A stretch of 64,000 nucleotides of DNA from Candidatus Zambryskiibacteriota bacterium (lineage in GTDB: Bacteria > Patescibacteriota > Minisyncoccia > Phycocordibacterales > DATDWN01): the NCBI GenBank assembly GCA_023267045.1, contig JAHFOB010000001.1, positions 9,593 through 73,592 on the forward strand. The letters run 5' to 3'. Below, piece by piece: positions 2,941-60,140 of this stretch (positions within the stretch are counted from its first letter, which is position 1; every line of letters begins with the position of its first letter). Both the position numbers and the translations under genes were made by a program. The notes beneath the pieces were generated by a model. The model was given only the letters and a program-made list of their open reading frames with translations. It did no database searches and had not been told where the DNA came from.

Positions 2941-4056
2941 ATGAAAGTACTTTCTATAAGCACAGACAGAAAATTGTTTGAAGAAGGAAGCGCTGTTTTA
3001 GAGCGTTCAAAAGATTATGCTTCCAAAATGGAGAAATTGCACATAATAGTTTTTTCCTTAAAAAGTCATAATTTAAAATTTAAAGAAGAAGGGAATTTGT
3101 ACATTTATCCAACAAATTCTTTGTCGAGATGGTTTTATGTGATGGATGCAGTGAAAATAGGAAAAAGTATTTTAAATAAAAGTTTTGTTATTTCCACCCA
3201 AGATCCATTTGAGACTGGTTTAGTCGGCTATAAACTTAAGAAAAAGTTTAATCTGCCACTCCAAATCCAAATACACACTGATTTCCTAAGTCCATATTTC
3301 AGAAATTCTTTCTTGAATTATATTCGTGTTTTTATTTCAAAATTTACTATTCCAAAAGCAGATTATGTTCGTGTTGTCAGTTCTTCAGTAGAAGATTCTC
3401 TAAGAAAAATCTCAACAAAAGTGAAAATTCAGATTTTGCCAGTTTTTGTTGATATTCCAAGAATAATGAATTTTCAACCAAAAAAAGATATAAAAAAAGA
3501 TTTTCCTCAATTTAAATTTAGTATTTTTATGGCTTCCCGGTTGACCAAAGAAAAGAGAATAGACACTGCACTCAAGGCTTTTAGAAAAGTAGTCGATGTC
3601 CACACAGAAGCTGGTTTGATTATTTCTGGATCAGGAAAAGAGGAAGGTAATCTAAAAAGTTTGGTAAAATCTCTAGGGCTTACAAAAAATGTTATTTTCA
3701 CTGGTTGGAATGATGGTTTGATTTCATATTATAAAACAGCAGATATTTTTCTACTTACTTCACAGTACGAGGGTTATGGTATGACTCTTGTGGAGGCTGG
3801 AGCATCGGGCTGTCCTATTGTTACGACAAAAGTTGGTCTGGCAAAAACAGATCTTTTTAAAAACGGAGCAAACTCTTTTGTCTGTTCAGTTTGGGATGTA
3901 AATTGTTTATCAGAATCTATTTTAAAACTTATTTCTAATCCCAATTTAAGACTATTGTTCAAAACAAAAATGCAGGATAGTATTAGAAATACAACTATTT
4001 CAAAAGAAGAATATGTGACAAAGTATGTCAGTTTGCTTCAGGATTTATTAAAATAA
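2941..4056 (+). CDS. Glycosyltransferase family 4
   Basis: Carries the E-x7-E motif EGYGMTLVEAGASGCPIVTT. The track start at 2923 adds MKNSNG, which is encoded by the element's right repeat; 2941 is the ATG contiguous with the gene body. Confidence 0.7.
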   Translation: MKVLSISTDRKLFEEGSAVLERSKDYASKMEKLHIIVFSLKSHNLKFKEEGNLYIYPTNSLSRWFYVMDAVKIGKSILNKSFVISTQDPFETGLVGYKLKKKFNLPLQIQIHTDFLSPYFRNSFLNYIRVFISKFTIPKADYVRVVSSSVEDSLRKISTKVKIQILPVFVDIPRIMNFQPKKDIKKDFPQFKFSIFMASRLTKEKRIDTALKAFRKVVDVHTEAGLIISGSGKEEGNLKSLVKSLGLTKNVIFTGWNDGLISYYKTADIFLLTSQYEGYGMTLVEAGASGCPIVTTKVGLAKTDLFKNGANSFVCSVWDVNCLSESILKLISNPNLRLLFKTKMQDSIRNTTISKEEYVTKYVSLLQDLLK

Positions 4057-4068
4057 CTCTGTAAATAC

Positions 4069-4917
4069 ATGAAAATAGGATTTATTGGAACTGGCTGGAT
4101 CGGTAAAAATTACGCTTTAGATTTCACAGAAAGAGGCTACGATGTTACTTCATACAGTCTTGAACCAGAATACAAAAAAAATAAAGATAAAATTTCAAAA
4201 TGTGATATTGTTTTTATTGCAGTACCAACGCCAACAACGCCAAAAGGCTTTGATGACTCAATAATAAGATCTGTTCTAGGGTTGGTCGGAAAAGGTAAAA
4301 TAGCTGTTTTGAAATCTACAATCGTCCCTGGGAAAACGAAGGAATTACAAAAAAAATTCCCAAACATAACACTCCTTTATTCTCCAGAGTTTTTGTCTGA
4401 AGCTACAGCAAAATTTGACACAAGTAATCCTTTTTCAAGTATTGTCGGGTTTTCAAAAGAAACAAAAATCCAAAAAGAAGCCTGTCAGAAAGTATTATCT
4501 ATTTTACCAAAAGCTCCTTTTTCTCTGGTATCTTCAAGTACAGAGGCAGAGATTATAAAATACACGCACAATACCAGTGGTTTTGTGCAGATCATTTTCT
4601 TTAACATGATCTATGATTTGTCTAGAAAACTTGGTTGCAACTGGAAAACTATCCACAAAGCTATAATAGCTGATCCTTTTATGTCTCATAAATATGCACA
4701 ACCTATTCATAAAAGTGGTCGTGGCGCAGGCGGGCATTGTTTCATAAAAGATTTTGAGGCTTTTCACAGACTCTACGAAAAACTTTTCTCAAATGATAAA
4801 TCCGGTTCAGCTATTTTCAGAGAAAATATAAAAAAGAACATTGAACTTTTGACAAGAACTAAGAAAGACCTGGGGCTTCTGCGCGGTGTTTATGGAGATG
4901 ATATAATTAAAAAATGA
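4069..4917 (+). CDS. Nucleotide-sugar dehydrogenase family protein (UDP-glucose/GDP-mannose dehydrogenase-like), short form
   Basis: N-terminal Rossmann signature MKIGFIGTGWIGK, the FIAVPTP motif, STIVPGKT, PEFLSEATAKFD and a catalytic-Cys-like GRGAGGHCFIKD. At 282 aa it lacks the usual C-terminal UDP-binding domain. Confidence 0.5.
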   Translation: MKIGFIGTGWIGKNYALDFTERGYDVTSYSLEPEYKKNKDKISKCDIVFIAVPTPTTPKGFDDSIIRSVLGLVGKGKIAVLKSTIVPGKTKELQKKFPNITLLYSPEFLSEATAKFDTSNPFSSIVGFSKETKIQKEACQKVLSILPKAPFSLVSSSTEAEIIKYTHNTSGFVQIIFFNMIYDLSRKLGCNWKTIHKAIIADPFMSHKYAQPIHKSGRGAGGHCFIKDFEAFHRLYEKLFSNDKSGSAIFRENIKKNIELLTRTKKDLGLLRGVYGDDIIKK

Positions 4918-11064: not shown

Positions 11065-12561
11065 ATGGAATATTCAGACTACATAGAGTCATTTTTCACA
11101 GAAAAAAGAAAGAAAATAATTCTAGCTATAGTTTTTGTTTTAGCACTATTTCTAATAACTTTCCAATTCATTAATACTCCAATGGTTTGGACTGACGAAG
11201 GTCTCTTTACTGAGATGTCTCGAAACGTAGCTTTTCACGGAGTGTGGGGTGTTCAGACAGCACCAGGAGTGTATTCTTTAATGAATACCACATTTGTTTC
11301 TGTAAGTTATCCAGTTATATTTGCTGTCGCGGTAAGTTTAAAACTTTTTGGTATCGGAGTTTTTCAGGCACGATTGCCCATGATCTTGTATATGTTTTTA
11401 TTAGTTGTCTTTTTTTATCTTTTTGCCAAAAAAAGATACGGTTTTTATCCAGCTGTTTTGTCAGTTCTTTTACTTTTATCTTTTTCACCTTTTTATGGTG
11501 ATGGTAGGCCTGTTCTTGGAGAAGTGCCCGGTTTAGTTTTTTTTGTTTTAGGTGCGTATTGGCTTCTTTTTTGGGAGGAAAGTGATTTTAAAAATATAAA
11601 GTGGGCGTTACTCACTGGATTTGCTTTCGGACTCTCAGCTGCTACTAAAGAAATTTATTTGATTGGGGTTCCATTAGCATTTATTGTCGCTCTCTTTTTT
11701 TGTTTTAAAAGAGAGCGACAAAAAGTAGAAAACAAAAAAACACTATTGTATTTTTTGTTAGGCTTTATTCCACCAGTTTTTGTATGGGCATATATTCATC
11801 TCATTTCTTCGAATACTGTAATGGATTTTATTCCAAACTATTTATATTTTTCTGGTAATCATGGTAGTAATTTGTCCACTATACAGACAATTGTAAGTAA
11901 TTTTATGAGATTTTTTACCGAATCGACTCCAATTCTTTTCTCTTTTTTACTTATTGTGACAATTGTCTCTTTTCTTTTTAGATTTAGGAAAGGTACATCA
12001 GAGCATTTTAGTGTTGCAGAGTGCACAATATTTGCTTTTGTTATTTTGAATTGGGCAGGATATTTGAAGGGAACAGGTTGGTATCGTTATTTTTTCCCGG
12101 CGCATATTCTACTTTACCTACTTTTTCCGGCTGCTCTTTTACTTTTTGCTAGACATTTTAAAAATCAATTTTTGAAAAAATATCTAATTGTCATTCCTAT
12201 CGTTTTGGTTATATTTCAGTTTTACTATCTAATATTTTTATCAGACACATCTTTTGTTGTTTCAAGAACTAGAAATACGGAGCTTACTCTAGTTCTTTCA
12301 AAAATTGATCCTTCAAAAAATGTTGTGTTCTATAACACTATGGAAACAATCATATTTTTTAAGGGAAATAATTATTCACAGTATTTATCAGTAGGTGATT
12401 TTATAGTAGTTGGAGACAAAAATATCTTATCCAGTACGACAGCAGACTATATAGTCAGTAATACTGATCAAAATCTTTCTGTCTCCCAATTATGTTATGA
12501 AAAAACATCTGTAAGTAGATATTATTTATTTACACGTTTGAATAATTGTAAAAAGAATTAG
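11065..12561 (+). CDS. Polytopic GT-C-like membrane glycosyltransferase (GT39/ArnT-like)
   Basis: 498 aa with many TM helices. The first-loop TDEGLFTEMSRNVAFHG resembles the DE motif of polyprenyl-phosphate-sugar-dependent GT-C enzymes. Confidence 0.5.
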   Translation: MEYSDYIESFFTEKRKKIILAIVFVLALFLITFQFINTPMVWTDEGLFTEMSRNVAFHGVWGVQTAPGVYSLMNTTFVSVSYPVIFAVAVSLKLFGIGVFQARLPMILYMFLLVVFFYLFAKKRYGFYPAVLSVLLLLSFSPFYGDGRPVLGEVPGLVFFVLGAYWLLFWEESDFKNIKWALLTGFAFGLSAATKEIYLIGVPLAFIVALFFCFKRERQKVENKKTLLYFLLGFIPPVFVWAYIHLISSNTVMDFIPNYLYFSGNHGSNLSTIQTIVSNFMRFFTESTPILFSFLLIVTIVSFLFRFRKGTSEHFSVAECTIFAFVILNWAGYLKGTGWYRYFFPAHILLYLLFPAALLLFARHFKNQFLKKYLIVIPIVLVIFQFYYLIFLSDTSFVVSRTRNTELTLVLSKIDPSKNVVFYNTMETIIFFKGNNYSQYLSVGDFIVVGDKNILSSTTADYIVSNTDQNLSVSQLCYEKTSVSRYYLFTRLNNCKKN

Positions 12562-17714: not shown

Positions 17715-18539
17715 ATGAAAAATCAATGCCCAATCTGTAATAGTGAAAATACTAAAATTAGGGATAGAGAGATCGGTGTATACGAATGTCTAAAATGTAC
17801 TCACGTTTTTACTGTTATCACAGGCAATCCACTCACACCTTATACAGAGGAATATTATAATAACAAACACAAAAACTGGTTTGAACATCCTGATGTAAGG
17901 TTGTTTAGAAAAATCGTAAAACAACTTGATCTAGAAAATAATCAAGGCAAATCACTAATAGATGTTGGTTGTGGAAAAGGTGATTTTTTGAAATATGTAA
18001 AAAATACTGGATTAAAGATACAACTATACGGTATAGATCCTACTAAAAACGTATACGATGGGATTTATTTTATCCAAGGAGATTTTATGAATATTGATTT
18101 TCCAGACAGAAAAGATTTTGTTGTTTCCACGATGGTTGTTGAACACGTTACAGAACCAAATCTTTTTATGCGCAAGATCGTAGATATACTAAAACCAAAC
18201 GGAGTATTGGTGCTTAATACAATAAACAGTGGTGCACTTATACATTATCTAGCAAGATTTTTAAAAATATTTGGTGTTCGAGTAGTTTTTGATCGTTTAT
18301 ATGACCATCATCATTTGCAACACTATACAAAAAAATCACTATCCCAGTTAGTCATACAAAACGGTTTTGAAATCACTTCTCACACGATTCATAATTTCCC
18401 TTTAAAAGCAGTTGATTTACCTGAAAATCGTGCTATTATAAGGCAAATTTACTTAGCTGGTGTAGCTATTATATTTGCATTTTCCAATGTATTTGGAGGA
18501 GGATTGAGCCAGACAATAGTTTGTCGTAAACACACATGA
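17715..18539 (+). CDS. Class I SAM-dependent methyltransferase with N-terminal Cys4 zinc ribbon
   Basis: CPICNSE ... CLKCTH zinc ribbon, then LIDVGCGKGDFL (SAM motif I). Confidence 0.6.
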   Translation: MKNQCPICNSENTKIRDREIGVYECLKCTHVFTVITGNPLTPYTEEYYNNKHKNWFEHPDVRLFRKIVKQLDLENNQGKSLIDVGCGKGDFLKYVKNTGLKIQLYGIDPTKNVYDGIYFIQGDFMNIDFPDRKDFVVSTMVVEHVTEPNLFMRKIVDILKPNGVLVLNTINSGALIHYLARFLKIFGVRVVFDRLYDHHHLQHYTKKSLSQLVIQNGFEITSHTIHNFPLKAVDLPENRAIIRQIYLAGVAIIFAFSNVFGGGLSQTIVCRKHT

Positions 18540-53537: not shown

Positions 53538-53752
53538 AGGGGTGCTCCCTGTCTGGTCCCTACAAGTTCTCTGTTTTGAGATACTTTGTCCTCACCACGC
53601 TCTGGATGATAACCTAGGATTAACTCATCACCCAAGGTGGAAGCCTTTGCGAGTTACGCGCCTCGTTGGCGGTCTTGGATTTTCTCTCGTCAAGAGACTT
53701 ATGAGGGATCTGATCGCGCGATCAAGATTAACCTTAAAGGAGCACCCCGTTT
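53538..53752 (+). ncRNA. Candidate ~215-nt structured RNA closed by a terminal helix GGGGUGCUCC / GGAGCACCCC. Identity unknown; it could be a 6S-like or other regulatory RNA.
   Basis: GC about 48% against a ~33% background. The 10-bp terminal helix and internal imperfect complementary strands were read directly (UCCCUACAAGUUCUCU vs AGAGACUUAUGAGGGA). The track ORFs across it are low-complexity and lack start context. Confidence 0.3.
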
Positions 53753-54056: not shown

Positions 54057-54478
54057 AATTTAAGAGTTCGCCCTTTATAATTCAAAGCTTCTTTAACAAA
54101 TTTTTCCCCAAGTTTTGTGCTATGTTCTATCATGTGACAGTTTGCACAAAGTAAAAGACATTTTTGCATCTCGGCTTTAATTGAATCCCAACTTTTATTT
54201 GCAACACCCCCGATAATGAATTCTTTCTTTGAAGAGTCTTTGTGGTGAAATTGCATTGCTGCTTGATTCCCATGCCATCCACATTTCTCACACTTTCCTC
54301 CCAATAATTTAATAGCTGCGGCTTTAGACCGAAATCTTCGAATTTTTGTATTACATGAACCACAACGATTTCTTTGTCTATTTTGGTAATCTTTAAATGG
54401 TTTATTACACAATTTGCATATTGTCATATTGGTCAGTATAACATATATGGCTCTACCAAAATCAAGAATGGGTTGCAA
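54053..54478 (-). CDS. HNH endonuclease
   Basis: Cys4 zinc site plus the HNH core: CEKCGWHGNQAAMQFHHKD...N...LLCANCHMIEH. Confidence 0.7.
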   Translation of the reverse strand: MQPILDFGRAIYVILTNMTICKLCNKPFKDYQNRQRNRCGSCNTKIRRFRSKAAAIKLLGGKCEKCGWHGNQAAMQFHHKDSSKKEFIIGGVANKSWDSIKAEMQKCLLLCANCHMIEHSTKLGEKFVKEALNYKGRTLKF

Positions 54479-54503
54479 AATAGGTATTTTTTAGTAATAT
54501 ATC

Positions 54504-54579
54504 CATACCACATGCCGAGGTAACTCAGTTAGCAGAGTGCTTCCCTGAAGAGGAAGAAGTCGCCAGTGCAACTCTGGCC
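54504..54579 (+). tRNA. tRNA-Phe (anticodon GAA)
   Basis: Manual fold: acceptor GCCGAGG/CCTCGGC, D-stem ACTC/GAGT, anticodon stem CTTCC/GGAAG with loop CTGAAGA, T-stem GCCAG/CTGGC, discriminator A, and an encoded CCA. Confidence 0.8.
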
Positions 54580-56132
54580 CTCGGCACCATAATCCGACTT
54601 TCGTCGGAAGAACCAACGGATGCGTGGGACGCGCGAAGTGCGTCCCACGGAGTTCCGCCTGAATCTGCGAGGGAATCTGTCAAAAATGAATCTGAATTTG
54701 GAGTGCAAGCACTCACGGTTTTTTCGCGGAGGAGGAGGTTCGAGCCAAAGACTTTTTTGGCAGCAACCTTTTTATTCAAAAGGTTGCTATCCAATGCAAT
54801 TTTTTCCATATTCTGGGCTTCTTTTATCCATTCTGACATCGGTTCGAGCCAATGTTTTTGCTTTTGTTCATTCCGAGATATTTCTTCTTCCAGCGACTTT
54901 TTCTCGGATAACAATTTTGCTTTTTGTTCACGATATACTTCTTTTTCTACATCTTGGTCTAAATATCCATCTAAAAGTCGCTGGAGCTTCACAGTAATAT
55001 CTTTTATACGATTTTGATTTTTTAGAACAAAAGCAGAAACAGATTGGGCGGATTCCGTTTTGTCGTTTTCTAAACGACCGAACATATATTCCGCCCAATC
55101 TTGTGGCAAAGAAACTTTTTGAAGAAGTGATGAAATTTGTTCGTCCAAGACTTCCTGGCGAATACAGGGTTCAGGACACTTAATATCTCGTCGCTTTTTG
55201 GAACAGTGATAGTAAGTGTAATAATGTTCTTTACCACTGACTTGTTTCTTCACCCTGTATTCGCCAGTGATCATCATTCCGCAAGTTCCACAGGATAACA
55301 AACCACAATATGCTTGGGGTTCATTTTTCTGTTTGTGTCTTGGACGACCTCTTTGCTTCATCACTTCTTGGACTCTATCAAAAAGTTTCTTGTCCACGAT
55401 TGGCTCAAACTTTCCTTCATAGACTTCACCAGAATATCTAAAGTGTCCATAGTAAAAAGGATTAGACAGAATAAAAGTAGCTCTGGTTCTATGGATTCTC
55501 TTTCCGTGTTTTGTTAAAAGATTGTGCTTCGCCAAAAACATACCGATAGTATTAAGAGTTTGATTACCTTGTGAATACAGTTCGAACGCTTGTCTTATAA
55601 CAGGCGCGGATTTTTTGTCCACCACGATTGTCTTTGTTCTACTATCGTTTATATATCCCACTGGTGAAAGTCCTGGATATTCTCCGCGCCTAACTTTTTG
55701 GCGAAGTCCTCTTTTGGTATTTTCGGAAAGAGAATCCACATAGTATTTACTTTGTCCGAAAGCCATGTTGAGCATGAATTTACCTTGACTCGTAGAATCA
55801 CACCAAAAAGTAGGAAACTTCAAGCTCGCAAGTTTCCCTGTGTCGAGGAGGTATATTATTTTTCCACCATCAATACTATTTCTTGCGAGACGATCCGGAT
55901 GCCAAGAGAGGATAGAATCTGCATCGCCATTTTCGATACATCTCATCATTTCGTTGAAAATAGGACGACCTGGAATCTTGGCAGATTGTTTTTCTATAAA
56001 CTCAAGGGCGATGTTCAGATTTTCTCGCTTGGCATAGTCTCGCAATTCGTTGAGCTGTGCCTCAATCGAAAGAACTTGTTTGTCCTCGACATCTGTTGAC
56101 TTGCGAGCGTATAAAAAGAATTTTTGTTCCAT
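54525..56132 (-). CDS. Large serine recombinase (resolvase/integrase family)
   Basis: N-terminal catalytic domain FFLYARKSTDVEDKQVLSIEAQ (Ser nucleophile context) ... WHPDRLARN, a recombinase domain, and Cys-rich zinc-ribbon CGTCGMMITGEYRVKK...CSKKRRDIKC. M at 56132 is the likely start. The 3' end of the ORF runs through IR-A and antisense through tRNA-Phe with no stop until 54525, so the true C-terminus is uncertain. Confidence 0.75.
   Translation of the reverse strand: MEQKFFLYARKSTDVEDKQVLSIEAQLNELRDYAKRENLNIALEFIEKQSAKIPGRPIFNEMMRCIENGDADSILSWHPDRLARNSIDGGKIIYLLDTGKLASLKFPTFWCDSTSQGKFMLNMAFGQSKYYVDSLSENTKRGLRQKVRRGEYPGLSPVGYINDSRTKTIVVDKKSAPVIRQAFELYSQGNQTLNTIGMFLAKHNLLTKHGKRIHRTRATFILSNPFYYGHFRYSGEVYEGKFEPIVDKKLFDRVQEVMKQRGRPRHKQKNEPQAYCGLLSCGTCGMMITGEYRVKKQVSGKEHYYTYYHCSKKRRDIKCPEPCIRQEVLDEQISSLLQKVSLPQDWAEYMFGRLENDKTESAQSVSAFVLKNQNRIKDITVKLQRLLDGYLDQDVEKEVYREQKAKLLSEKKSLEEEISRNEQKQKHWLEPMSEWIKEAQNMEKIALDSNLLNKKVAAKKVFGSNLLLREKTVSACTPNSDSFLTDSLADSGGTPWDALRASHASVGSSDESRIMVPRARVALATSSSSGKHSAN
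54622..54756. repeat. Inverted repeat IR-A (~135 bp, left copy) flanking the serine recombinase gene
   Basis: About 85% identical to the reverse complement of 56185-56317. It contains the hairpins CGTGGGACGC-gcgaagt-GCGTCCCACG and GAGTGC-aa-GCACTC, and ends in a T-arm-like GGAGGAGGTTCGAGCC. Confidence 0.7.
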
Positions 56133-56184
56133 ATGTTTGTAGTATAGCAAAAATTCTTTTTGTAAAGAAAAGTAAAAATTGTAT

Positions 56185-56317
56185 TGGATTCGAACCTCCT
56201 CCTCCAAAACAAATTAGTGCGCGCTTGCGCGCCAGATTCAGATTCATTTTTGGCGGATTCCATCGCAGATTCAGGCGGGAACCCTTGGGATGCACTTCGT
56301 GCGTCCCACATTATGGC
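56185..56317. repeat. Inverted repeat IR-A' (right copy, about 50 bp upstream of the recombinase start)
   Basis: Reverse complement of 54622-54756. The hairpins are conserved with compensatory changes (GCGCGC-aa-GCGCGC against GAGTGC-aa-GCACTC). Confidence 0.7.
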
Positions 56318-56334
56318 TTCTTCAAAACCGATTT

Positions 56335-56575
56335 GTTCTATTTTGGTGTGTCTTTACGACTTCGCTCGAACTTATTTCATTAAAACTGTTTAAGTGGTGA
56401 ATCTGACAATGAATTCCGTCACGGCTCGGCATCCGCTCCAGAACACGCTGGAAAGCGTGTTCTTCCGCTTCTGCCTTACCGTGTCCGCCCTCGCACCCAT
56501 CGCTTCCAATCCTAAATCTGTTTTGCGCGGGATTTCTTTTTTCGGAATGGGCGATTGGTTCTCGGGCTACTTGCC
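56335..56575. repeat. Inverted repeat IR-B (~240 bp, left copy), GC-rich, with internal hairpin GAACACGCT-ggaa-AGCGTGTTC and a terminal hairpin plus T-tract
   Basis: Near-identical to the reverse complement of 59355-59598. The identical 61-aa track ORFs (56394-56579 + and 59347-59547 -) are a consequence of this repeat. Confidence 0.75.
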
Positions 56576-56611
56576 GTGACAAAAAATTAACCAAAATGTT
56601 ATACTTAAAAC

Positions 56612-58228
56612 ATGGATGAACAAACTCCTACTATTATTCCTCCCCCGATACCCCAGGAAGAACCTCAAAAAACTAAACAGCCATTATGGTTAGCGGTCTC
56701 AATTCTGGCTGCAGTTTTTGTAGTTGTCGGTAGTTATTTTATATATCAAAAACTAACGACAAAATCACAGATTCAGAATGTAAATTTTGTAAATATTGCT
56801 ACGACCACAGATCAATTTGCAAATTGGAAAACATATACCGATGAACAGTATAAATTTGAGTTTAAATATCCAGCTACACTTGAAGTTTTTAAAGATAATA
56901 CGGCGATTATTCACATTATTCATCCCGAAGATAAGGACGTAGATTTAAGTAAAACTGGGCCAGTAGATGGCATGTGGATACATGTTGTGGATAATACAGA
57001 TAAATTATCCGTCACTGATTGGTGGAATAAATACGGACCTTATACTCCAAAAAGAAATGGTACTGGACTTAAACCCGACACTTTTCCAATTAAGAATATG
57101 AGCGTGGGTAATTTAAACGGTATTTACATTGGTGGTTCAGAGGGTGTTTTATCGAATTACCTCATTTTGCCATATATGGATAAAATCCTTGAAATTAATG
57201 TAATGACTAAAGATTTCAAGGAAATTCTCTCTACTTTAAAATTACCAGAATCATTAACAAAAGATTGGCAAACCTACAGAAACGATGAGTTTAAAATTTT
57301 TGAAATAAAATATCCTGGAGGATGGGTAATTCAACAGGAAGATCCTTACCAGCTTATTTTATCAAGTGCTCCAAAAGAACAATATTTGAAAGATGTTGGT
57401 GTCGCTCCTTCTGGAAATATGTCAATAACCGTGTCAGAGGGTGTAAATTGCTCTAGTGATGATTTCAAAAGCCTTCTCGGTTTTACGAAGTCAAACATTT
57501 CAGTTAAAAGAGTTTGTGTTGATGGATTTCAGATCTCAGCAGTTATTTGGAATGATGATACGCAAATAATTTCTCATAAAGAACTACTGAATGAAATTAT
57601 TTCCACATTTAAATTTATTGAGAAAAAACGACTTAGTAAAGAAGAACTAGCAAACAGAATATTACTAACTTCAGAAAATATTCCTACTTACGCAAAATAT
57701 AATGAACCATATAAAAGCGGGAGTTTACCCTCAGCATGTACTGAAAAATTTAATTATGACGAGCCAAATAGTACAACTACTTATTCTAATACAAAATGGG
57801 GCATATCGTTTGGAGTTCCATATAATGTAAATTGGGGAAATAGTAAGTACAGAATAGATCCGTATGAAGAAATTGAGGTAAATAATAAATATAACAACGA
57901 TGTCTTATCTGCTATTTCATGGGGTTATATTAGTGGTGGTGAGGGATGTTCATGGGGAAGACAATATTTTGTTGATATTAAATCAAAAAAATCAGCGGAG
58001 GATCTTATGACATCAATGAAACCGGATAATCTTCCTTACGATATATTTCATGCTAAAATCGAGACAATAAATAACTTACAGGTTGTAAAATATAGTACTG
58101 CCGATATGTGTGCATATTACTATATAGTAGTTATTGGTAAAAAATATAATTATGAATTCACATCTTCATGTAATGGAAGTTTTGATGACGTTGAACCGGT
58201 AGTTAAAACAGTAAAACTACTTGATTAA
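56612..58228 (+). CDS. Secreted or membrane-anchored protein of unknown function (N-terminal TM/signal anchor, Pro-rich linker, ~480-aa extracytoplasmic domain)
   Basis: KQPLWLAVSILAAVFVVVGSYFIY anchor. No recognisable catalytic motif. Enclosed between the IR-B copies. Confidence 0.4.
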   Translation: MDEQTPTIIPPPIPQEEPQKTKQPLWLAVSILAAVFVVVGSYFIYQKLTTKSQIQNVNFVNIATTTDQFANWKTYTDEQYKFEFKYPATLEVFKDNTAIIHIIHPEDKDVDLSKTGPVDGMWIHVVDNTDKLSVTDWWNKYGPYTPKRNGTGLKPDTFPIKNMSVGNLNGIYIGGSEGVLSNYLILPYMDKILEINVMTKDFKEILSTLKLPESLTKDWQTYRNDEFKIFEIKYPGGWVIQQEDPYQLILSSAPKEQYLKDVGVAPSGNMSITVSEGVNCSSDDFKSLLGFTKSNISVKRVCVDGFQISAVIWNDDTQIISHKELLNEIISTFKFIEKKRLSKEELANRILLTSENIPTYAKYNEPYKSGSLPSACTEKFNYDEPNSTTTYSNTKWGISFGVPYNVNWGNSKYRIDPYEEIEVNNKYNNDVLSAISWGYISGGEGCSWGRQYFVDIKSKKSAEDLMTSMKPDNLPYDIFHAKIETINNLQVVKYSTADMCAYYYIVVIGKKYNYEFTSSCNGSFDDVEPVVKTVKLLD

Positions 58229-58272
58229 TAATTTGTTGCTTAAAAATTGGTATTTGATATAATGTCAGTAAT

Positions 58273-58755
58273 ATGGCTCGCGATGTACTAAATGCACAAC
58301 AAATAGCCGAATACTTCCTCTGGAAAGCGCAAAACGAGAAAAAGGCAATTACGAATAAGAAACTGCAGAAATTACTTTACTATGCTCAAGCATGGTCTTT
58401 GGTTTTGCGTGACAAAAAACTTTTCAGTGACAAAATTGAGGCGTGGGTACATGGGCCTGCTGTTCGTGATGTATATTTTGAATACAAAAAATTTGGCTTT
58501 GGGCCAATCACAAAAACTGTAAAGGAAAATGACTTAGAAAAAATTTCTATAGATACAAAAAAATTCCTCGATCAAGTTTGGTCTGTATATGGTAAAAAAG
58601 ATGCAGCTTATTTGGAATATCTTTCTCACTCTGAAACTCCTTGGCAAAAAGCCCGCGAAGGACTTGAACCACATATTGGGTCTGAAAATGAAATTTCTCC
58701 TAAAGACATGAAGGAATTTTACAGTTCTAAACTCACAACACAGAAACATACTTAA
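58273..58755 (+). CDS. Panacea-domain (DUF4065/SocA-like) protein, a putative antitoxin-type component
   Basis: ARDVLNAQQIAEYFLWKAQ...ITNKKLQKLLYYAQAWSLVL...AWVHGPAVRDVY matches the DUF4065/Panacea core. Three nucleotides separate it from the next ORF. Confidence 0.45.
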   Translation: MARDVLNAQQIAEYFLWKAQNEKKAITNKKLQKLLYYAQAWSLVLRDKKLFSDKIEAWVHGPAVRDVYFEYKKFGFGPITKTVKENDLEKISIDTKKFLDQVWSVYGKKDAAYLEYLSHSETPWQKAREGLEPHIGSENEISPKDMKEFYSSKLTTQKHT

Positions 58756-58758
58756 ACT

Positions 58759-59187
58759 ATGACAATACCATCACCGGACGAGAAACTTCCAGAAAGTCCA
58801 ATACCATTGACCGCTGTTGAAATTCCACAACCTGAAGAACCGCCAGAAGCGAAACCTTTTCTGATATCTTTCGAAAAGTATAACGATAAGGAGTGCCAGC
58901 TAGACGGAATGGAGAGCAAAATGGCTAAAAAAGCTTTTAAAACTATTCGTGATATTGGTGTAAATATAAGAGACGAAAGCGATTTTGGTAAATATTTACC
59001 AAAATTAGAAGTTGTCCCTATAGAAAATAGTGGAGATTACAGAAAATTATACAAAGGACTAACAGATATGCCAGATGTTGAAGTGAAAGAAGCAAAAATT
59101 GATCGTCATACAGGTCGATTATTCTTTTTCTTGGTAGGTAAAATTTTTCATATTATCGCGGTAAGAGAAAGTCATTACCAAACATAA
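58759..59187 (+). CDS. Hypothetical protein with a RelE/ParE/Gp49-like C-terminal region; putative toxin partner
   Basis: C-terminal KIDRHTGRLFFFLVGKIFHIIAVRESHY resembles the RelE/ParE-superfamily C-terminal strand-helix. The Pro-rich N-terminal extension is unusual. Tightly coupled to the upstream Panacea gene. Confidence 0.25.
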   Translation: MTIPSPDEKLPESPIPLTAVEIPQPEEPPEAKPFLISFEKYNDKECQLDGMESKMAKKAFKTIRDIGVNIRDESDFGKYLPKLEVVPIENSGDYRKLYKGLTDMPDVEVKEAKIDRHTGRLFFFLVGKIFHIIAVRESHYQT

Positions 59188-59354
59188 AAAGCACAGCAGT
59201 TTACTTGTAGCCTCGGACATATTCCGTTTTGGGCGTCGTCACATAACTACAAAATGATACATTACCACTAGCGCAAAGGAATGTCTGAGGCGAATGATTA
59301 TGTTAGAGTAAAGATATAGGTAGGTAGTACAGTAGTTTGAATTCCGTCAGTTTC

Positions 59355-59598
59355 TCCCTTTAAGGAGAAACCCGCCCGAGAACCAATCGCCCATTCCGAA
59401 AAAAGAAATCCCGCGCAAAACAGATTTAGGATTGGAAGCGATGGGTGCGAGGGCGGACACGGTAAGGCAGAAGCGGAAGAACACGCTTTCCAGCGTGTTC
59501 TGGAGCGGATGCCGAGCCGTGACGGAATTCATTGTCAGATTCACCACTTAAACAGTTTTAATGAAATAAGTTCGAGCGAAGTCGTAAAGACACACCAT
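59355..59598. repeat. Inverted repeat IR-B' (right copy)
   Basis: Reverse complement of 56335-56575. The match breaks at TTCTCGGGC on both sides. Confidence 0.75.
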
Positions 59599-59663
59599 AA
59601 TCAAAAACCATCCTGAGTTTATCGAAGGATGGTTTTTTGATTGCGGTGCCAAATATGGAAGTT

Positions 59664-60140
59664 CTACCCCTTAACCTTTAGTCTTGTTTGTCTATTTTTA
59701 TCTATCTTTGGTAGACGTATTATAAGCAGTCCATGTTTTTCCACAGCATCTGCTTCATCCACTTGGACTTCGGCTGGGAGCATAATAGTTCTTGAAAATG
59801 AACCCCAGTAGAGTTCCTGGTGAAAATAGTCCTCATCTTTTACAAATCTTTCCGTCTCTCGCTTGCCTTTTATCGTAACAACATCACGAGTAATAGAAAT
59901 ATCCAAATCTTCTGGTTTTACACCAGCAACCATGCTTTTTATGACAATCTCCGAAGGTGTTTGATAGACGTCAACCGTCAATTCTCCTTCCGAAGCTTCT
60001 TCGTCAAACCAAGCTTCACCAGAAGGTGAAGTTTTGTCTTTACTAGGTAGTTTACTTACCGTAGGAGTCTCTTCTGTGTCATTTTCATCAACTCTGCTAC
60101 TACCAGTTAGCTTCTCAAAGAACGATCGGTTATCTTTCAT
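59664..60140 (-). CDS. Hsp20/alpha-crystallin family small heat-shock protein
   Basis: Alpha-crystallin domain (DVYQTPSEIVIKSMVAGVKPEDLDISITRDVVTIKGKRE...LPAEV...A..E.GLLIIRLPK). Confidence 0.8.
   Translation of the reverse strand: MKDNRSFFEKLTGSSRVDENDTEETPTVSKLPSKDKTSPSGEAWFDEEASEGELTVDVYQTPSEIVIKSMVAGVKPEDLDISITRDVVTIKGKRETERFVKDEDYFHQELYWGSFSRTIMLPAEVQVDEADAVEKHGLLIIRLPKIDKNRQTRLKVKG

What the first reader, a model, noticed from the sequence alone, without database searches (positions are those of the whole stretch)
56335..59598. IR-B copies look like convergent small-RNA genes pointing into the cargo
Each 240-bp IR-B copy (56335-56575 and 59355-59598) is GC-rich. It contains a strong internal hairpin GAACACGCU-GGAA-AGCGUGUUC and ends, on the cargo-proximal side, with a hairpin plus U-tract: AAAUC...GCGCGGGAUUU CUUUUUUC. 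The geometry is two inward-facing terminated transcripts flanking the cargo, which could act as antisense or insulating RNAs or mark inversion sites. The track shows identical 61-aa ORFs in both, but these have no start context and are probably not coding.
Basis: inference. Interest (0 to 1): 0.5.

Follow-up and report, generated by a model that had tools for sequence, protein, structure and literature searches.

The report
Duplicated end of a tRNA-targeting island
The two repeat copies are not a pair of small-RNA genes but a duplicated end piece of a small mobile gene island, driven by a serine recombinase, that sits behind a tRNA gene; the same unusual double-inverted-repeat layout recurs in many candidate-phyla-radiation (CPR) bacteria and was not found described.

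Summary
The repeat is real: 224 nt perfect (228 nt with one mismatch), 56340-56567 and 59374-59601, 49% GC against 35% for the window. The named hairpin exists. The claimed hairpin plus U-tract does not fold better than shuffled sequence.

IR-B belongs to an element of about 5 kb (about 54588-59597) inserted between tRNA-Phe and its terminator. The layout is tRNA-Phe | A | large serine recombinase (LSR, minus strand) | A'B' | three cargo genes | B | terminator.

The outer ~45 nt of each B copy is conserved in most of the ~160 related CPR loci fetched. In 18 of 18 loci with all three junctions readable, tRNA|A, B|A and B|flank share only 3-5 nt at tRNA positions 72-74. This fits an LSR crossover.

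- The right B copy is therefore the element's end (attR).
- The left B copy plus A is an intact second attP-like site.

Other loci carry different covarying hairpin modules there. Pairing is almost purely Watson-Crick with no strand bias, so RNA and DNA cannot be told apart. No Rfam family matches and no promoter was found. Why the module is duplicated and what the hairpins do is unresolved.

The parts
54514..54589 (+). tRNA-Phe(GAA), the target gene. Its T-arm and acceptor 3' strand form the bacterial (B) half of the left junction (attL). The inferred crossover is at CAC|CA, 54585-54589.
   Evidence: ARAGORN and Rfam. Junction comparison in 18 loci.
54590..54758 (+). IR-A left arm (A in 'X' orientation), directly after the tRNA. 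It contains a covarying hairpin (GTGGGACGCGC-GAA-GTGCGTCCCAC) and a terminator-like hairpin with a T-run (54701-54724). On the minus strand it is read as LSR codons ~459-504.
54525..56132 (-). Large serine recombinase gene (535 aa). The ORF runs through the A arm and stops inside the antisense of tRNA-Phe.
   Evidence: Pfam Resolvase + Recombinase + Zn_ribbon_recom. PDB matches to A118 and SPbeta integrases. YARKS catalytic motif and Cys cluster. ORF limits.
56175..56309 (-). IR-A right arm (A on the minus strand), upstream of the recombinase gene. It is 80% identical to the left arm here, against 96-100% in five of six other loci checked.
56310..56385 (-). Internal intact B|A junction (attP-like): the conserved B core (56344-56385, ending ACACACCA on the minus strand) joined to the start of A.
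56340..56567 (-). IR-B, recombinase-proximal copy. It is a truncated copy of the hairpin domain (it lacks the 5' strand of the closing helix and the first hairpin) plus the B core.
56441..56462 (.). It is the tip of the longest hairpin of the domain.
56514..56543 (+). It is not a credible terminator and lies in the A-rich apical loop of the second hairpin of the domain.
56612..59187 (+). Cargo of three genes: a 538-aa membrane protein with a PsbP_2-like region, a 160-aa SocA/Panacea antitoxin and a 142-aa protein of unknown function. A promoter-like site lies at 56576-56605.
59339..59530 (+). Complete 192-nt hairpin domain ('W-domain'). It is closed by GAATTCCGTC/GACGGAATTC and holds three hairpins. 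The only homologue found is L158:2615-2813.
59374..59601 (+). IR-B, distal copy. Its last ~45 nt (59557-59597) are the conserved B core, which forms the element half of the right junction (attR). The element ends at about 59597.
59598..59650 (.). Strong two-way terminator hairpin outside the repeat. It is inferred to be the original terminator of tRNA-Phe (shared with the convergent Hsp20 gene) and the bacterial half of attR.
   Evidence: The same kind of flank (a terminator or the next tRNA gene) follows the distal B copy in other loci.

Best explanation
IR-B is the duplicated end module of a small (~5 kb) integrative island driven by a large serine recombinase (LSR). The island is inserted at the 3' end of tRNA-Phe, between the tRNA and its terminator.

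What each part is:
- The outer ~45 nt of each B copy (ending ...GTTCGAGC...ACACAC|CA) is the element-side left half-site (P) of the recombinase attachment site.
- It imitates a tRNA T-loop and acceptor end, but sits 4 nt further from the crossover than the real one.
- The distal copy (59374-59601) is the right end of the element (attR = B core | host terminator).
- The proximal copy (56340-56567), joined to the inner A arm, is a second, intact attP-like site in inverted orientation.

Consequences of this layout:
- An excised circle would carry two inverted B-A (attP) modules, one on each side of the recombinase gene.
- Integration through either module, or homologous flipping between the arms, would give both orientations of the recombinase segment. 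Both are seen in related genomes.
- The near-identity of the arms would be kept by recombination or gene conversion between them.

The GC-rich remainder of IR-B is a lineage-specific block of very stable, almost purely Watson-Crick hairpins. Its role is not established. I think it most likely acts as a structural or insulating block next to the attachment site, stalling or terminating read-through between the tRNA or recombinase side and the cargo. It may work at the DNA level or on both transcripts. I do not think it is a discrete trans-acting small RNA.

Shown: the repeat, the architecture and its conservation, the junction pattern, and the recombinase class. Inferred: the crossover position, the excised two-attP circle, the reason for the duplication, and the role of the hairpins.
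For: Context in the window:
- An LSR with resolvase, recombinase and zinc-ribbon domains lies next to IR-B. It is flanked by a second inverted repeat and abuts tRNA-Phe.

Conservation:
- More than 500 relatives were found in GTDB genomes and more than 500 in metagenomes, and none in IMG/VR. The titled genome records are almost all Patescibacteria/CPR MAGs; a few carry other labels.
- The A arm occurs upstream of the LSR gene and, inverted, inside its 3' end in nearly all of the first 80 loci.
- 97 loci have a tRNA (or tmRNA) at the LSR 3' side, with 27 different tRNA/anticodon targets. 55 loci show the full B-core / LSR / tRNA layout.
- B arms of about 140 to more than 300 nt, 84-100% identical and 1.2-7 kb apart, flank variable cargo in at least 18 loci.

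Junctions:
- In 18 of 18 loci, tRNA|A, B|A and B|flank share only CAC or CTC (plus CA). The core follows the tRNA discriminator (CTC for Thr; CAC for Phe, Val, Arg, Ile).
- The flank after the distal B is a terminator or the next tRNA gene.

Geometry:
- GTTCGA lies 26 nt from the crossover in the B core and 22 nt in the tRNAs.
- A118 integrase has attP 6-8 bp longer than attB, needs identity only in the central 2 bp, and binds the right half-sites poorly (PMC3556126).

Both orientations exist:
- L073 reads tRNA-Leu > A > LSR > A'B' - cargo - B; L052 also has B' after the LSR 3' end. 10 loci have a tRNA upstream and 12 have a B core at the 3' side.

Assembly behaviour:
- Other assemblies of the same population stop inside IR-B, as expected for a true repeat longer than the assembly word (k-mer) size.

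Hairpin blocks:
- The window's domain has z = -6.9 and is kept in L158.
- The M1-M2 modules of other loci show 17 of 19 pairs with two-sided changes and 97.4% pairing, reached by 0 of 500 shuffles.
Against: - No empty site and no circular junction was found, so mobility is inferred from comparison only.
- The two A arms of the window are only 80% identical and differ most next to the junction. This copy may therefore be a mosaic or inactive.
- No recombination directionality factor was identified.
- Standard LSRs do not use two attP sites, and no function for the duplication has been shown.
- The B core looks like a sigma-70 promoter in 28 of 76 loci, so its conservation may partly reflect promoter rather than binding function. 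It does not look like one in the window.
- The insulator idea rests only on hairpin stability and on A-runs/T-runs next to the hairpins that I read from the alignments without a formal count.
- Perfect palindromes can also be kept by template-switch correction without any selected function.
- The domain in the window has a single homologue.
Confidence: 0.72

Rival explanations
1. Each IR-B copy is a small-RNA gene, or another discrete structured RNA (for example a leader or 3' UTR element), that acts on the cargo or on the recombinase mRNA.
For: - Fold energy is very low on both strands (z = -6.9 and -5.7).
- The structure is conserved with compensatory changes in L158.
- The equivalent modules of other loci covary strongly.
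- 19 of 20 related B regions fold better on the cargo-facing strand.
- The cargo operon would read into the distal copy.
- In the alignments, A-runs precede these hairpins on the outward-reading strand, which would be U-runs after them on the cargo-facing strand. This is my reading, not a formal count.
Against: - There is no Rfam match.
- No promoter was found, and the claimed terminator is at shuffle level.
- The left copy lacks part of the domain.
- Wobble pairs are as rare as other mismatches and show no strand bias, which is unusual for an RNA selected on one strand.
- The better folding of the cargo-facing strand can be explained by composition, because that strand is G-rich. The window itself shows the opposite.
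- The sequence is not conserved even in the closest LSR relatives (L085, 86% identical protein, has a different B).
Confidence: 0.15
2. IR-B marks a programmed invertible cassette, as in the Gin, Hin or Pin systems: the adjacent recombinase flips the cargo to switch expression.
For: - A serine recombinase lies next to a segment bounded by inverted repeats.
- Cargo genes face either way among loci.
- The recombinase segment itself is found in both orientations.
Against: - The enzyme is a 535-aa integrase-type LSR, not a ~190-aa invertase.
- The cargo genes are complete and have their own promoter-like site inside the segment, so flipping would change nothing obvious.
- The cargo is unrelated from locus to locus.
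- The junction pattern is that of integration at tRNA genes.
- Arms of more than 200 nt would flip by homologous recombination without any enzyme.
- The cargo orientation in short-read assemblies is not reliable.
Confidence: 0.08
3. The repeat is an assembly artefact, or the terminal inverted repeats of a separate transposon or MITE that carries the three genes.
For: - Inverted repeats bound a 3.3-kb gene block.
- Contigs of other assemblies break there.
Against: - The same layout is seen in dozens of independent assemblies made with different assemblers.
- There is no target-site duplication at the outer ends (sequence...TTGTTCT| on the left and |TAATCAA on the right).
- No transposase is present in the cargo.
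- No further copies occur in the window.
- The identity stops exactly at the tRNA-type CCA end.
Confidence: 0.03

Closest known systems
Large serine integrases of temperate phages and integrative elements (A118/LI, phiC31, Bxb1, SPbeta)
   Same: - Same domain set: resolvase, recombinase and zinc ribbon.
- The junctions share only a few central bases.
- The element-side half-site is about 4 nt longer than the host-side one.
- The right half-sites are poorly conserved, as reported for A118 (PMC3556126).
   Different: - There are no phage genes and no relatives in IMG/VR.
- The targets are the 3' ends of many different tRNA genes.
- The attP region is present twice, inverted, on both sides of the recombinase gene.
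- The recombinase ORF reads through the site into the antisense of the tRNA.
SCC elements with Ccr recombinases (SCCmec)
   Same: - CcrB and CcrC are the best curated matches to the LSR.
- Both are small to medium cargo islands inserted at the 3' end of a conserved gene.
- Both lack transfer genes.
   Different: - The scores are far below the family cut-offs (127 against 900 bits), so the LSR is not a member.
- SCC targets rlmH, not tRNAs.
- SCC has short terminal repeats (my own knowledge), not an internal inverted copy of the attachment region.
Tycheposons of Prochlorococcus (bioRxiv 10.1101/2020.12.28.424599)
   Same: - Both are cargo islands in small, streamlined genomes.
- Both integrate site-specifically at tRNA genes.
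- The cargo is variable, and several copies can occur per genome.
   Different: - Tycheposons mostly use their own tyrosine recombinase (910 of 937 elements) and share replication hallmark genes.
- No double inverted repeat is described for them.
- The element here has only an LSR plus cargo.
Yeast 2-micron plasmid (FLP/FRT in 599-bp inverted repeats) and streptococcal pSM19035 (my own knowledge)
   Same: The inferred excised circle would have two unique segments separated by long inverted repeats. Each repeat would hold a recombinase site, and the recombinase gene would sit in one of the segments.
   Different: - FLP is a tyrosine recombinase.
- Those are replicating plasmids, where flipping drives copy-number amplification.
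- No replication gene is present here, and the circle itself has not been observed.
Gin/Hin/Pin invertible segments
   Same: A serine recombinase gene lies beside a segment bounded by inverted repeats.
   Different: - Those systems use small invertases.
- Their crossover sites are 26-34 bp and lie inside genes or promoters.
- They need an enhancer.
- None of these features is seen here.

Membership tests
Large serine recombinase (integrase) integrative element | A recombinase with an N-terminal resolvase catalytic domain (active-site Ser), a recombinase domain and a zinc-ribbon domain | tested here: met
   Pfam PF00239, PF07508 and PF13408, all above their cut-offs. Matches to the A118 and SPbeta integrase structures. 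YARKS motif and Cys cluster.
Large serine recombinase (integrative element) | attL, attR and attP junctions that share only a short central core, with no long direct repeats | tested here: met
   18 of 18 loci share only CAC or CTC (plus CA) between tRNA|A, B|A and B|flank. The window shares CACCATAATC between its left and right junctions.
Large serine recombinase (integrative element) | The element-side site is longer than the host-side site by a few bp per half-site | tested here: met
   GTTCGA lies 26 nt from the crossover in the B core and 22 nt in the tRNA. A118 for comparison: attB is 6-8 bp shorter than attP. That GTTCGA is the binding motif is an inference.
Large serine recombinase (integrative element) | Evidence of mobility: an empty site, a circular junction, or presence/absence among strains | tested here: inconclusive
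The flank after the distal B is a terminator or the next tRNA gene, which fits an insertion. The source reads could not be searched.
Large serine recombinase (integrative element) | A recombination directionality factor for excision | not tested
   No conserved small gene was seen in the variable cargo. This was not examined further.
   No promoter-like site is called at either copy. The B core of the window has no sigma-70 match.
   -6.1 kcal/mol, z = +0.32. Not called by the scan.
   The structure is conserved in L158 and in the related modules. There is no strand bias in wobble pairs, and the window's own domain has only one homologue.
   No expression data are available.
Any Rfam family | A score at or above the family's gathering threshold | tested here: not met
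   There were no matches in the window and none at E <= 10 in 54400-59800 apart from tRNA-Phe and one sub-threshold hit, sR33 at 16.3 against 37 bits, in the inner A arm. The B regions of the related loci scanned had no match either.
Gin/Hin-type invertible segment | A small (~190 aa) serine invertase with short crossover sites placed so that inversion switches a gene or promoter | tested here: not met
   The enzyme is a 535-aa LSR. The cargo genes are complete, with an internal promoter-like site.
Tycheposon | The tycheposon-type tyrosine recombinase and shared replication hallmark genes | tested here: not met
   The enzyme is a serine recombinase, and the cargo has no replication genes. Only the tRNA targeting and the cargo-island habit are shared.
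SCC (Ccr) element | The recombinase reaches the CcrA, CcrB or CcrC family cut-off | tested here: not met
   The best score is 126.6 bits against a cut-off of 900.

The most novel reading that the evidence does not exclude
The family is a new type of mobile island. Its excised form would carry two inverted copies of its attachment site plus hairpin module around the recombinase gene, and the duplication would be functional. One possibility is that it lets the element integrate or flip in either orientation, switching the recombinase between being read sense or antisense from the tRNA promoter, as a built-in on/off switch. Another is that the conserved hairpin modules act as RNA or single-stranded-DNA cofactors of recombination or of uptake.
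Probability: 0.15. Interest if true: 0.8.

Novelty: new variant of a known kind. Interest (0 to 1): 0.5.

Why it matters
- CPR/Patescibacteria genomes are tiny, and very little is known about how they gain and lose genes.
- The family found here occurs in hundreds of such genomes and targets at least 27 different tRNA species.
- It ferries restriction-modification, toxin-antitoxin, transporter and envelope genes. It may therefore be a main vehicle of their flexible gene content, much as tycheposons are in Prochlorococcus.
- The recombinases, with their short tRNA-mimicking sites, could also interest genome engineers.
- The inverted duplication of the attachment region and the recombinase ORF that reads into the tRNA antisense are unusual for serine integrases. 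They give a concrete, testable question.
- The repeats also explain why contigs of these organisms so often break beside tRNA genes.

Tried and rejected
- **Known RNA families.** Rfam was run at gathering scores and at permissive E-values on the window and on related loci. Nothing matched the repeats.
- **tRNA or tmRNA identity of B.** ARAGORN finds none. The tRNA-like stretch is only the 3' ~30 nt and does not form a T-arm.
- **Protein-coding reading.** The 61-aa and 90-aa ORFs have no Pfam hit, and the L158 homologue has frame-breaking indels.
- **Strand assignment.** Fold-energy asymmetry pointed to the cargo-facing strand in 19 of 20 loci but the other way in the window, and it is confounded by G content. 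Wobble-pair counts gave no bias. The attempt was abandoned.
- **B core as a universal promoter.** This holds in only 28 of 76 loci and not in the window.
- **RNA-guided targeting.** A 7-nt match between B and the tRNA-Phe acceptor stem was noticed while reading the sequence. I judged it chance, and the GCCGAGG in modules of loci with other targets argues against it. It was not pursued.
- **Empty-site search** among the fetched loci: none found.
- **Phage origin.** There are no LSR relatives in IMG/VR.
- **Defence-system models** (PADLOC) on the cargo and the LSR: no hits.
- **Literature.** Four searches for serine recombinases in CPR bacteria or for double attP sites found nothing relevant.
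- **One script timed out** and was replaced by pattern searches.
- **An unexplained gene call.** A 116-aa partial gene is called on a 3272-nt cargo contig from another assembly.


Full report
**1. The observation**

The inverted repeat is real.
- Its arms are 56340-56567 and 59374-59601.
- It is perfect over 224 nt, with a single mismatch at 56343/59598.
- It is 49% GC in a 35% GC window.
- The hairpin GAACACGCT-GGAA-AGCGTGTTC is present in both copies, at 56441-56462 and 59479-59500.

The proposed terminator (AAATC...GATTT followed by CTTTTTTC, 56514-56543) is not credible.
- It folds at -6.1 kcal/mol with z = +0.32, no better than shuffled sequence.
- The terminator scan does not call it.

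The only strong terminator nearby is the two-way hairpin at 59598-59650 (z = -4.5). It lies just outside the right copy.

**2. Context in the window**

- IR-B is one of two inverted repeats. The other ('IR-A', 54624-54758 and 56175-56309, 80% identical) flanks a minus-strand gene.
- That gene encodes a large serine recombinase (LSR). It has resolvase, recombinase and zinc-ribbon domains, matches the A118 and SPbeta integrase structures, and carries a YARKS catalytic motif.
- The LSR ORF (54525-56132) runs through the left A arm and stops inside the antisense of tRNA-Phe (54514-54589).
- Reading the plus strand, the layout is: tRNA-Phe | A | LSR(-) | A' B' | three cargo genes | B | terminator | Hsp20(-).
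- The cargo is a membrane protein, a SocA/Panacea antitoxin and a protein of unknown function.
- I call 'X' the orientation in which B is followed by A. On the minus strand, 56567 down to 56175 is one contiguous B-A unit. The outer copies are an A alone (after the tRNA) and a B alone (before the terminator).

**3. Related loci**

- The LSR has more than 500 relatives in GTDB genomes and more than 500 in metagenomes, at 56-87% identity. The titled genome records are almost all Patescibacteria/CPR MAGs; a few carry other labels. There are none in IMG/VR.
- An A-arm profile finds A upstream of the LSR and, inverted, inside its 3' end in nearly all of the first 80 loci.
- 97 loci have a tRNA or tmRNA whose 3' end faces the LSR 3' end. 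There are 27 different tRNA/anticodon targets.
- Where enough upstream sequence exists, a B arm next to A has an inverted partner 1.2-7 kb away. The arms are about 140 to more than 300 nt long and 84-100% identical.
- The genes between the arms are unrelated from locus to locus. They include a HaeII restriction enzyme, LemA/DUF2207, NYN, an ABC ATPase, a glycosyltransferase and an S51 peptidase.
- Many contigs end inside A or B. In other assemblies of this same population the Hsp20 contigs stop inside IR-B: L082, a k141 contig, reaches 145 nt into the repeat. The cargo also turns up on a separate 3272-nt contig. The cargo orientation in the window may therefore not be resolved by short reads.

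**4. Junctions**

In 18 of 18 loci where all three junctions can be read:
- tRNA|A (J1) equals B|A (J2) from the crossover rightwards. This holds closely in 14 of the 18; in the window, L003, L047 and L160 the stretch next to the junction has diverged.
- B|flank (J3) equals J2 up to the crossover.
- The three share only CAC or CTC, with or without the following CA. These are tRNA positions 72-74.
- The core follows the target: CTC for Thr tRNAs; CAC for Phe, Val, Arg and Ile tRNAs.
- The J3 flank is an intrinsic terminator (window, L003, L015, L160) or the next tRNA gene of a former tandem (L028, L049, L062, L087).

This is the signature of conservative site-specific insertion between a tRNA and whatever followed it.
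- In the window, J1 (GGCAC CA TAATCCGAC) and J3 (ACACAC CA TAATCAAAAA) share CACCATAATC.
- The element spans about 54588-59597.

**5. The conserved tip of B**

- The last ~45 nt of B are the only part of the window's IR-B that is similar in other loci.
- MAFFT aligns this tip with the T-arm and acceptor end of true tRNAs, with a 4-nt insertion.
- GTTCGA lies 26 nt from the crossover in B and 22 nt in tRNAs.
- For A118 integrase, attP is 6-8 bp longer than attB, only the central 2 bp must match, and the right half-sites bind poorly (PMC3556126).
- I therefore read the B tip as the P half-site, which mimics the near-universal tRNA T-loop. This would explain how one LSR family uses so many tRNA genes. 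It is an inference.
- In 28 of 76 loci the tip also resembles a sigma-70 promoter reading towards A and the LSR. It never does so on the other strand, and it does not in the window.

**6. What the duplication implies**

- J1 (attL) and J3 (attR) are in direct orientation. Excision would therefore give a circle whose new junction is B|A, the same as the internal J2 but inverted.
- The circle would thus have two inverted attP-like modules, one on each side of the LSR gene.
- Both expected integrated forms exist. The common form has the LSR convergent with the tRNA (55 fully verified loci). The rarer form has tRNA > A > LSR > A'B' - cargo - B. L073 shows this form, with its B pair at 11754-11869(-) and 17720-17835(+), and L052 also has B' after the LSR. 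In all, 10 loci have a tRNA upstream and 12 have a B core at the 3' side.
- Arms within a genome are usually near-identical while B differs greatly between genomes, which points to ongoing exchange between the arms.
- Why the module is duplicated is not known.

**7. The GC-rich part of IR-B**

In the window:
- It belongs to a 192-nt domain (59339-59530). The domain is closed by GAATTCCGTC/GACGGAATTC and holds three hairpins (-91.7 kcal/mol).
- With the B tip included, z = -6.9 on the X strand and -5.7 on the other strand.
- Its first 35 nt lie outside the repeat, so the left copy is incomplete.
- The one homologue (L158:2615-2813) keeps the architecture through many changes.

In other loci:
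- Even the closest LSR relative (L085, 86% identical) has different modules in this place.
- Two of these modules, M1 and M2, were modelled. They occur in about 30 loci. Where both B arms lie on the contig they come as an inverted pair, one next to A and the LSR and one at the far end of the cargo. They show 97.4% pairing and two-sided changes in 17 of 19 pairs, reached by 0 of 500 shuffles. This alignment was fitted to the model, which favours the structure.

RNA or DNA:
- Pairing is almost purely Watson-Crick: 562 Watson-Crick pairs, 5 G.T, 7 A.C and 8 other. The same holds for the A-arm hairpin, where 438 of 440 cells in the variable pairs are Watson-Crick.
- So there is no strand signal. 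The pattern fits DNA-level palindromes, function on both transcripts, or palindrome correction by template switching.
- One locus (L035) even has the loop of the A hairpin inverted.
- That A hairpin is also read as LSR residues W-[D/A]-x-L-[R/C]-x-x-H. These residues change in step with the stem, so the nucleic-acid constraint dominates there.

**8.

- The sequence features are largely as described.
- The reading as two inward-facing, terminated small-RNA genes is not supported. There is no promoter, no terminator, no Rfam family and no strand signal, and one copy is truncated.

**9. Comparison and novelty**

- The element works like a serine-integrase island. It meets the tests I could run for that class (domains, junction core, site geometry), but mobility itself is unproven.
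- It is not an SCC element (127 against 900 bits). It is not a tycheposon, because the recombinase class is wrong and there are no replication genes. It is not a Gin/Hin-type switch.
- The inverted duplication of the attachment region, the LSR ORF that crosses its own site into the tRNA antisense, and the covarying hairpin modules were not found in four literature searches. That library is incomplete.
- I rate it a new variant of a known kind, of moderate interest.

Noticed in passing
window 53539-53752 (+): A GC-rich ~210-nt stretch lies right after tRNA-Arg(CCT). It is closed by a 10-bp helix (GGGGTGCTCC...GGAGCACCCC) and folds at -73 kcal/mol, z = -3.1. It has no Rfam match even at E <= 10 and no similarity in the first 80 loci. 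It may be an undescribed small RNA.
   Followed up: partly
window 54525-54623 (-) against tRNA-Phe 54514-54589 (+): The last ~33 codons of the recombinase ORF are read from the antisense of the junction and the tRNA gene. In relatives the tail changes with the target tRNA (for example ...STN* on Phe and Thr genes). When the gene faces a B copy instead, the tail ends ...LFYQxRTxFQN. So integration rewrites the C-terminal tail of the protein.
   Followed up: partly
window 54590-54625 against 56310-56343: The two A arms of the window carry different versions of the first small hairpin after the junction: CCGAC-TTTC-GTCGG and GAAC-AAATC-GGTT. Each version matches a different group of relatives, which suggests that this element is a mosaic of two lineages.
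   Followed up: partly
L055:337-469 (+): A LOOT RNA (Rfam RF03000, 71.5 bits against a gathering score of 46.4) lies inside the cargo of a related island, about 50 nt in from the distal B arm.
   Followed up: no
L008:12962-13194 (+): A group I intron (RF00028, 78 bits) lies about 0.8 kb beyond the tRNA cluster that borders this locus's island.
   Followed up: no
L047, flank beyond the distal B copy (about 4000-4075): The flank after the distal B is a fragment of another recombinase gene of the same family, in reverse orientation. This suggests nested or serial insertions. L137, L150 and L159 have B cores on both sides of the recombinase gene.
   Followed up: partly
L024:1810-2140 (-): One island is inserted at the 3' end of a tmRNA gene rather than a tRNA. 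The gene ends ...CCATCTCCACCA, and ARAGORN reads a tag peptide.
   Followed up: no
L035, upstream A arm: The loop of the conserved A hairpin is inverted (TTC instead of GAA) while the stem is unchanged. This is a footprint of template switching or cruciform-type rearrangement within the palindrome.
   Followed up: no
L037:9701-11616: The recombinase gene with its two A arms sits between two convergent true tRNA genes (Arg-CCG and Leu-CAG), with no B copy. Either both attachment sites were used, or the assembler joined two insertions.
   Followed up: no
window 58273-59187 (+): The cargo encodes a SocA/Panacea-domain antitoxin followed by a 142-aa protein with no Pfam, NCBIfam or PADLOC hit. This may be an uncharacterised toxin partner.
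   Followed up: no
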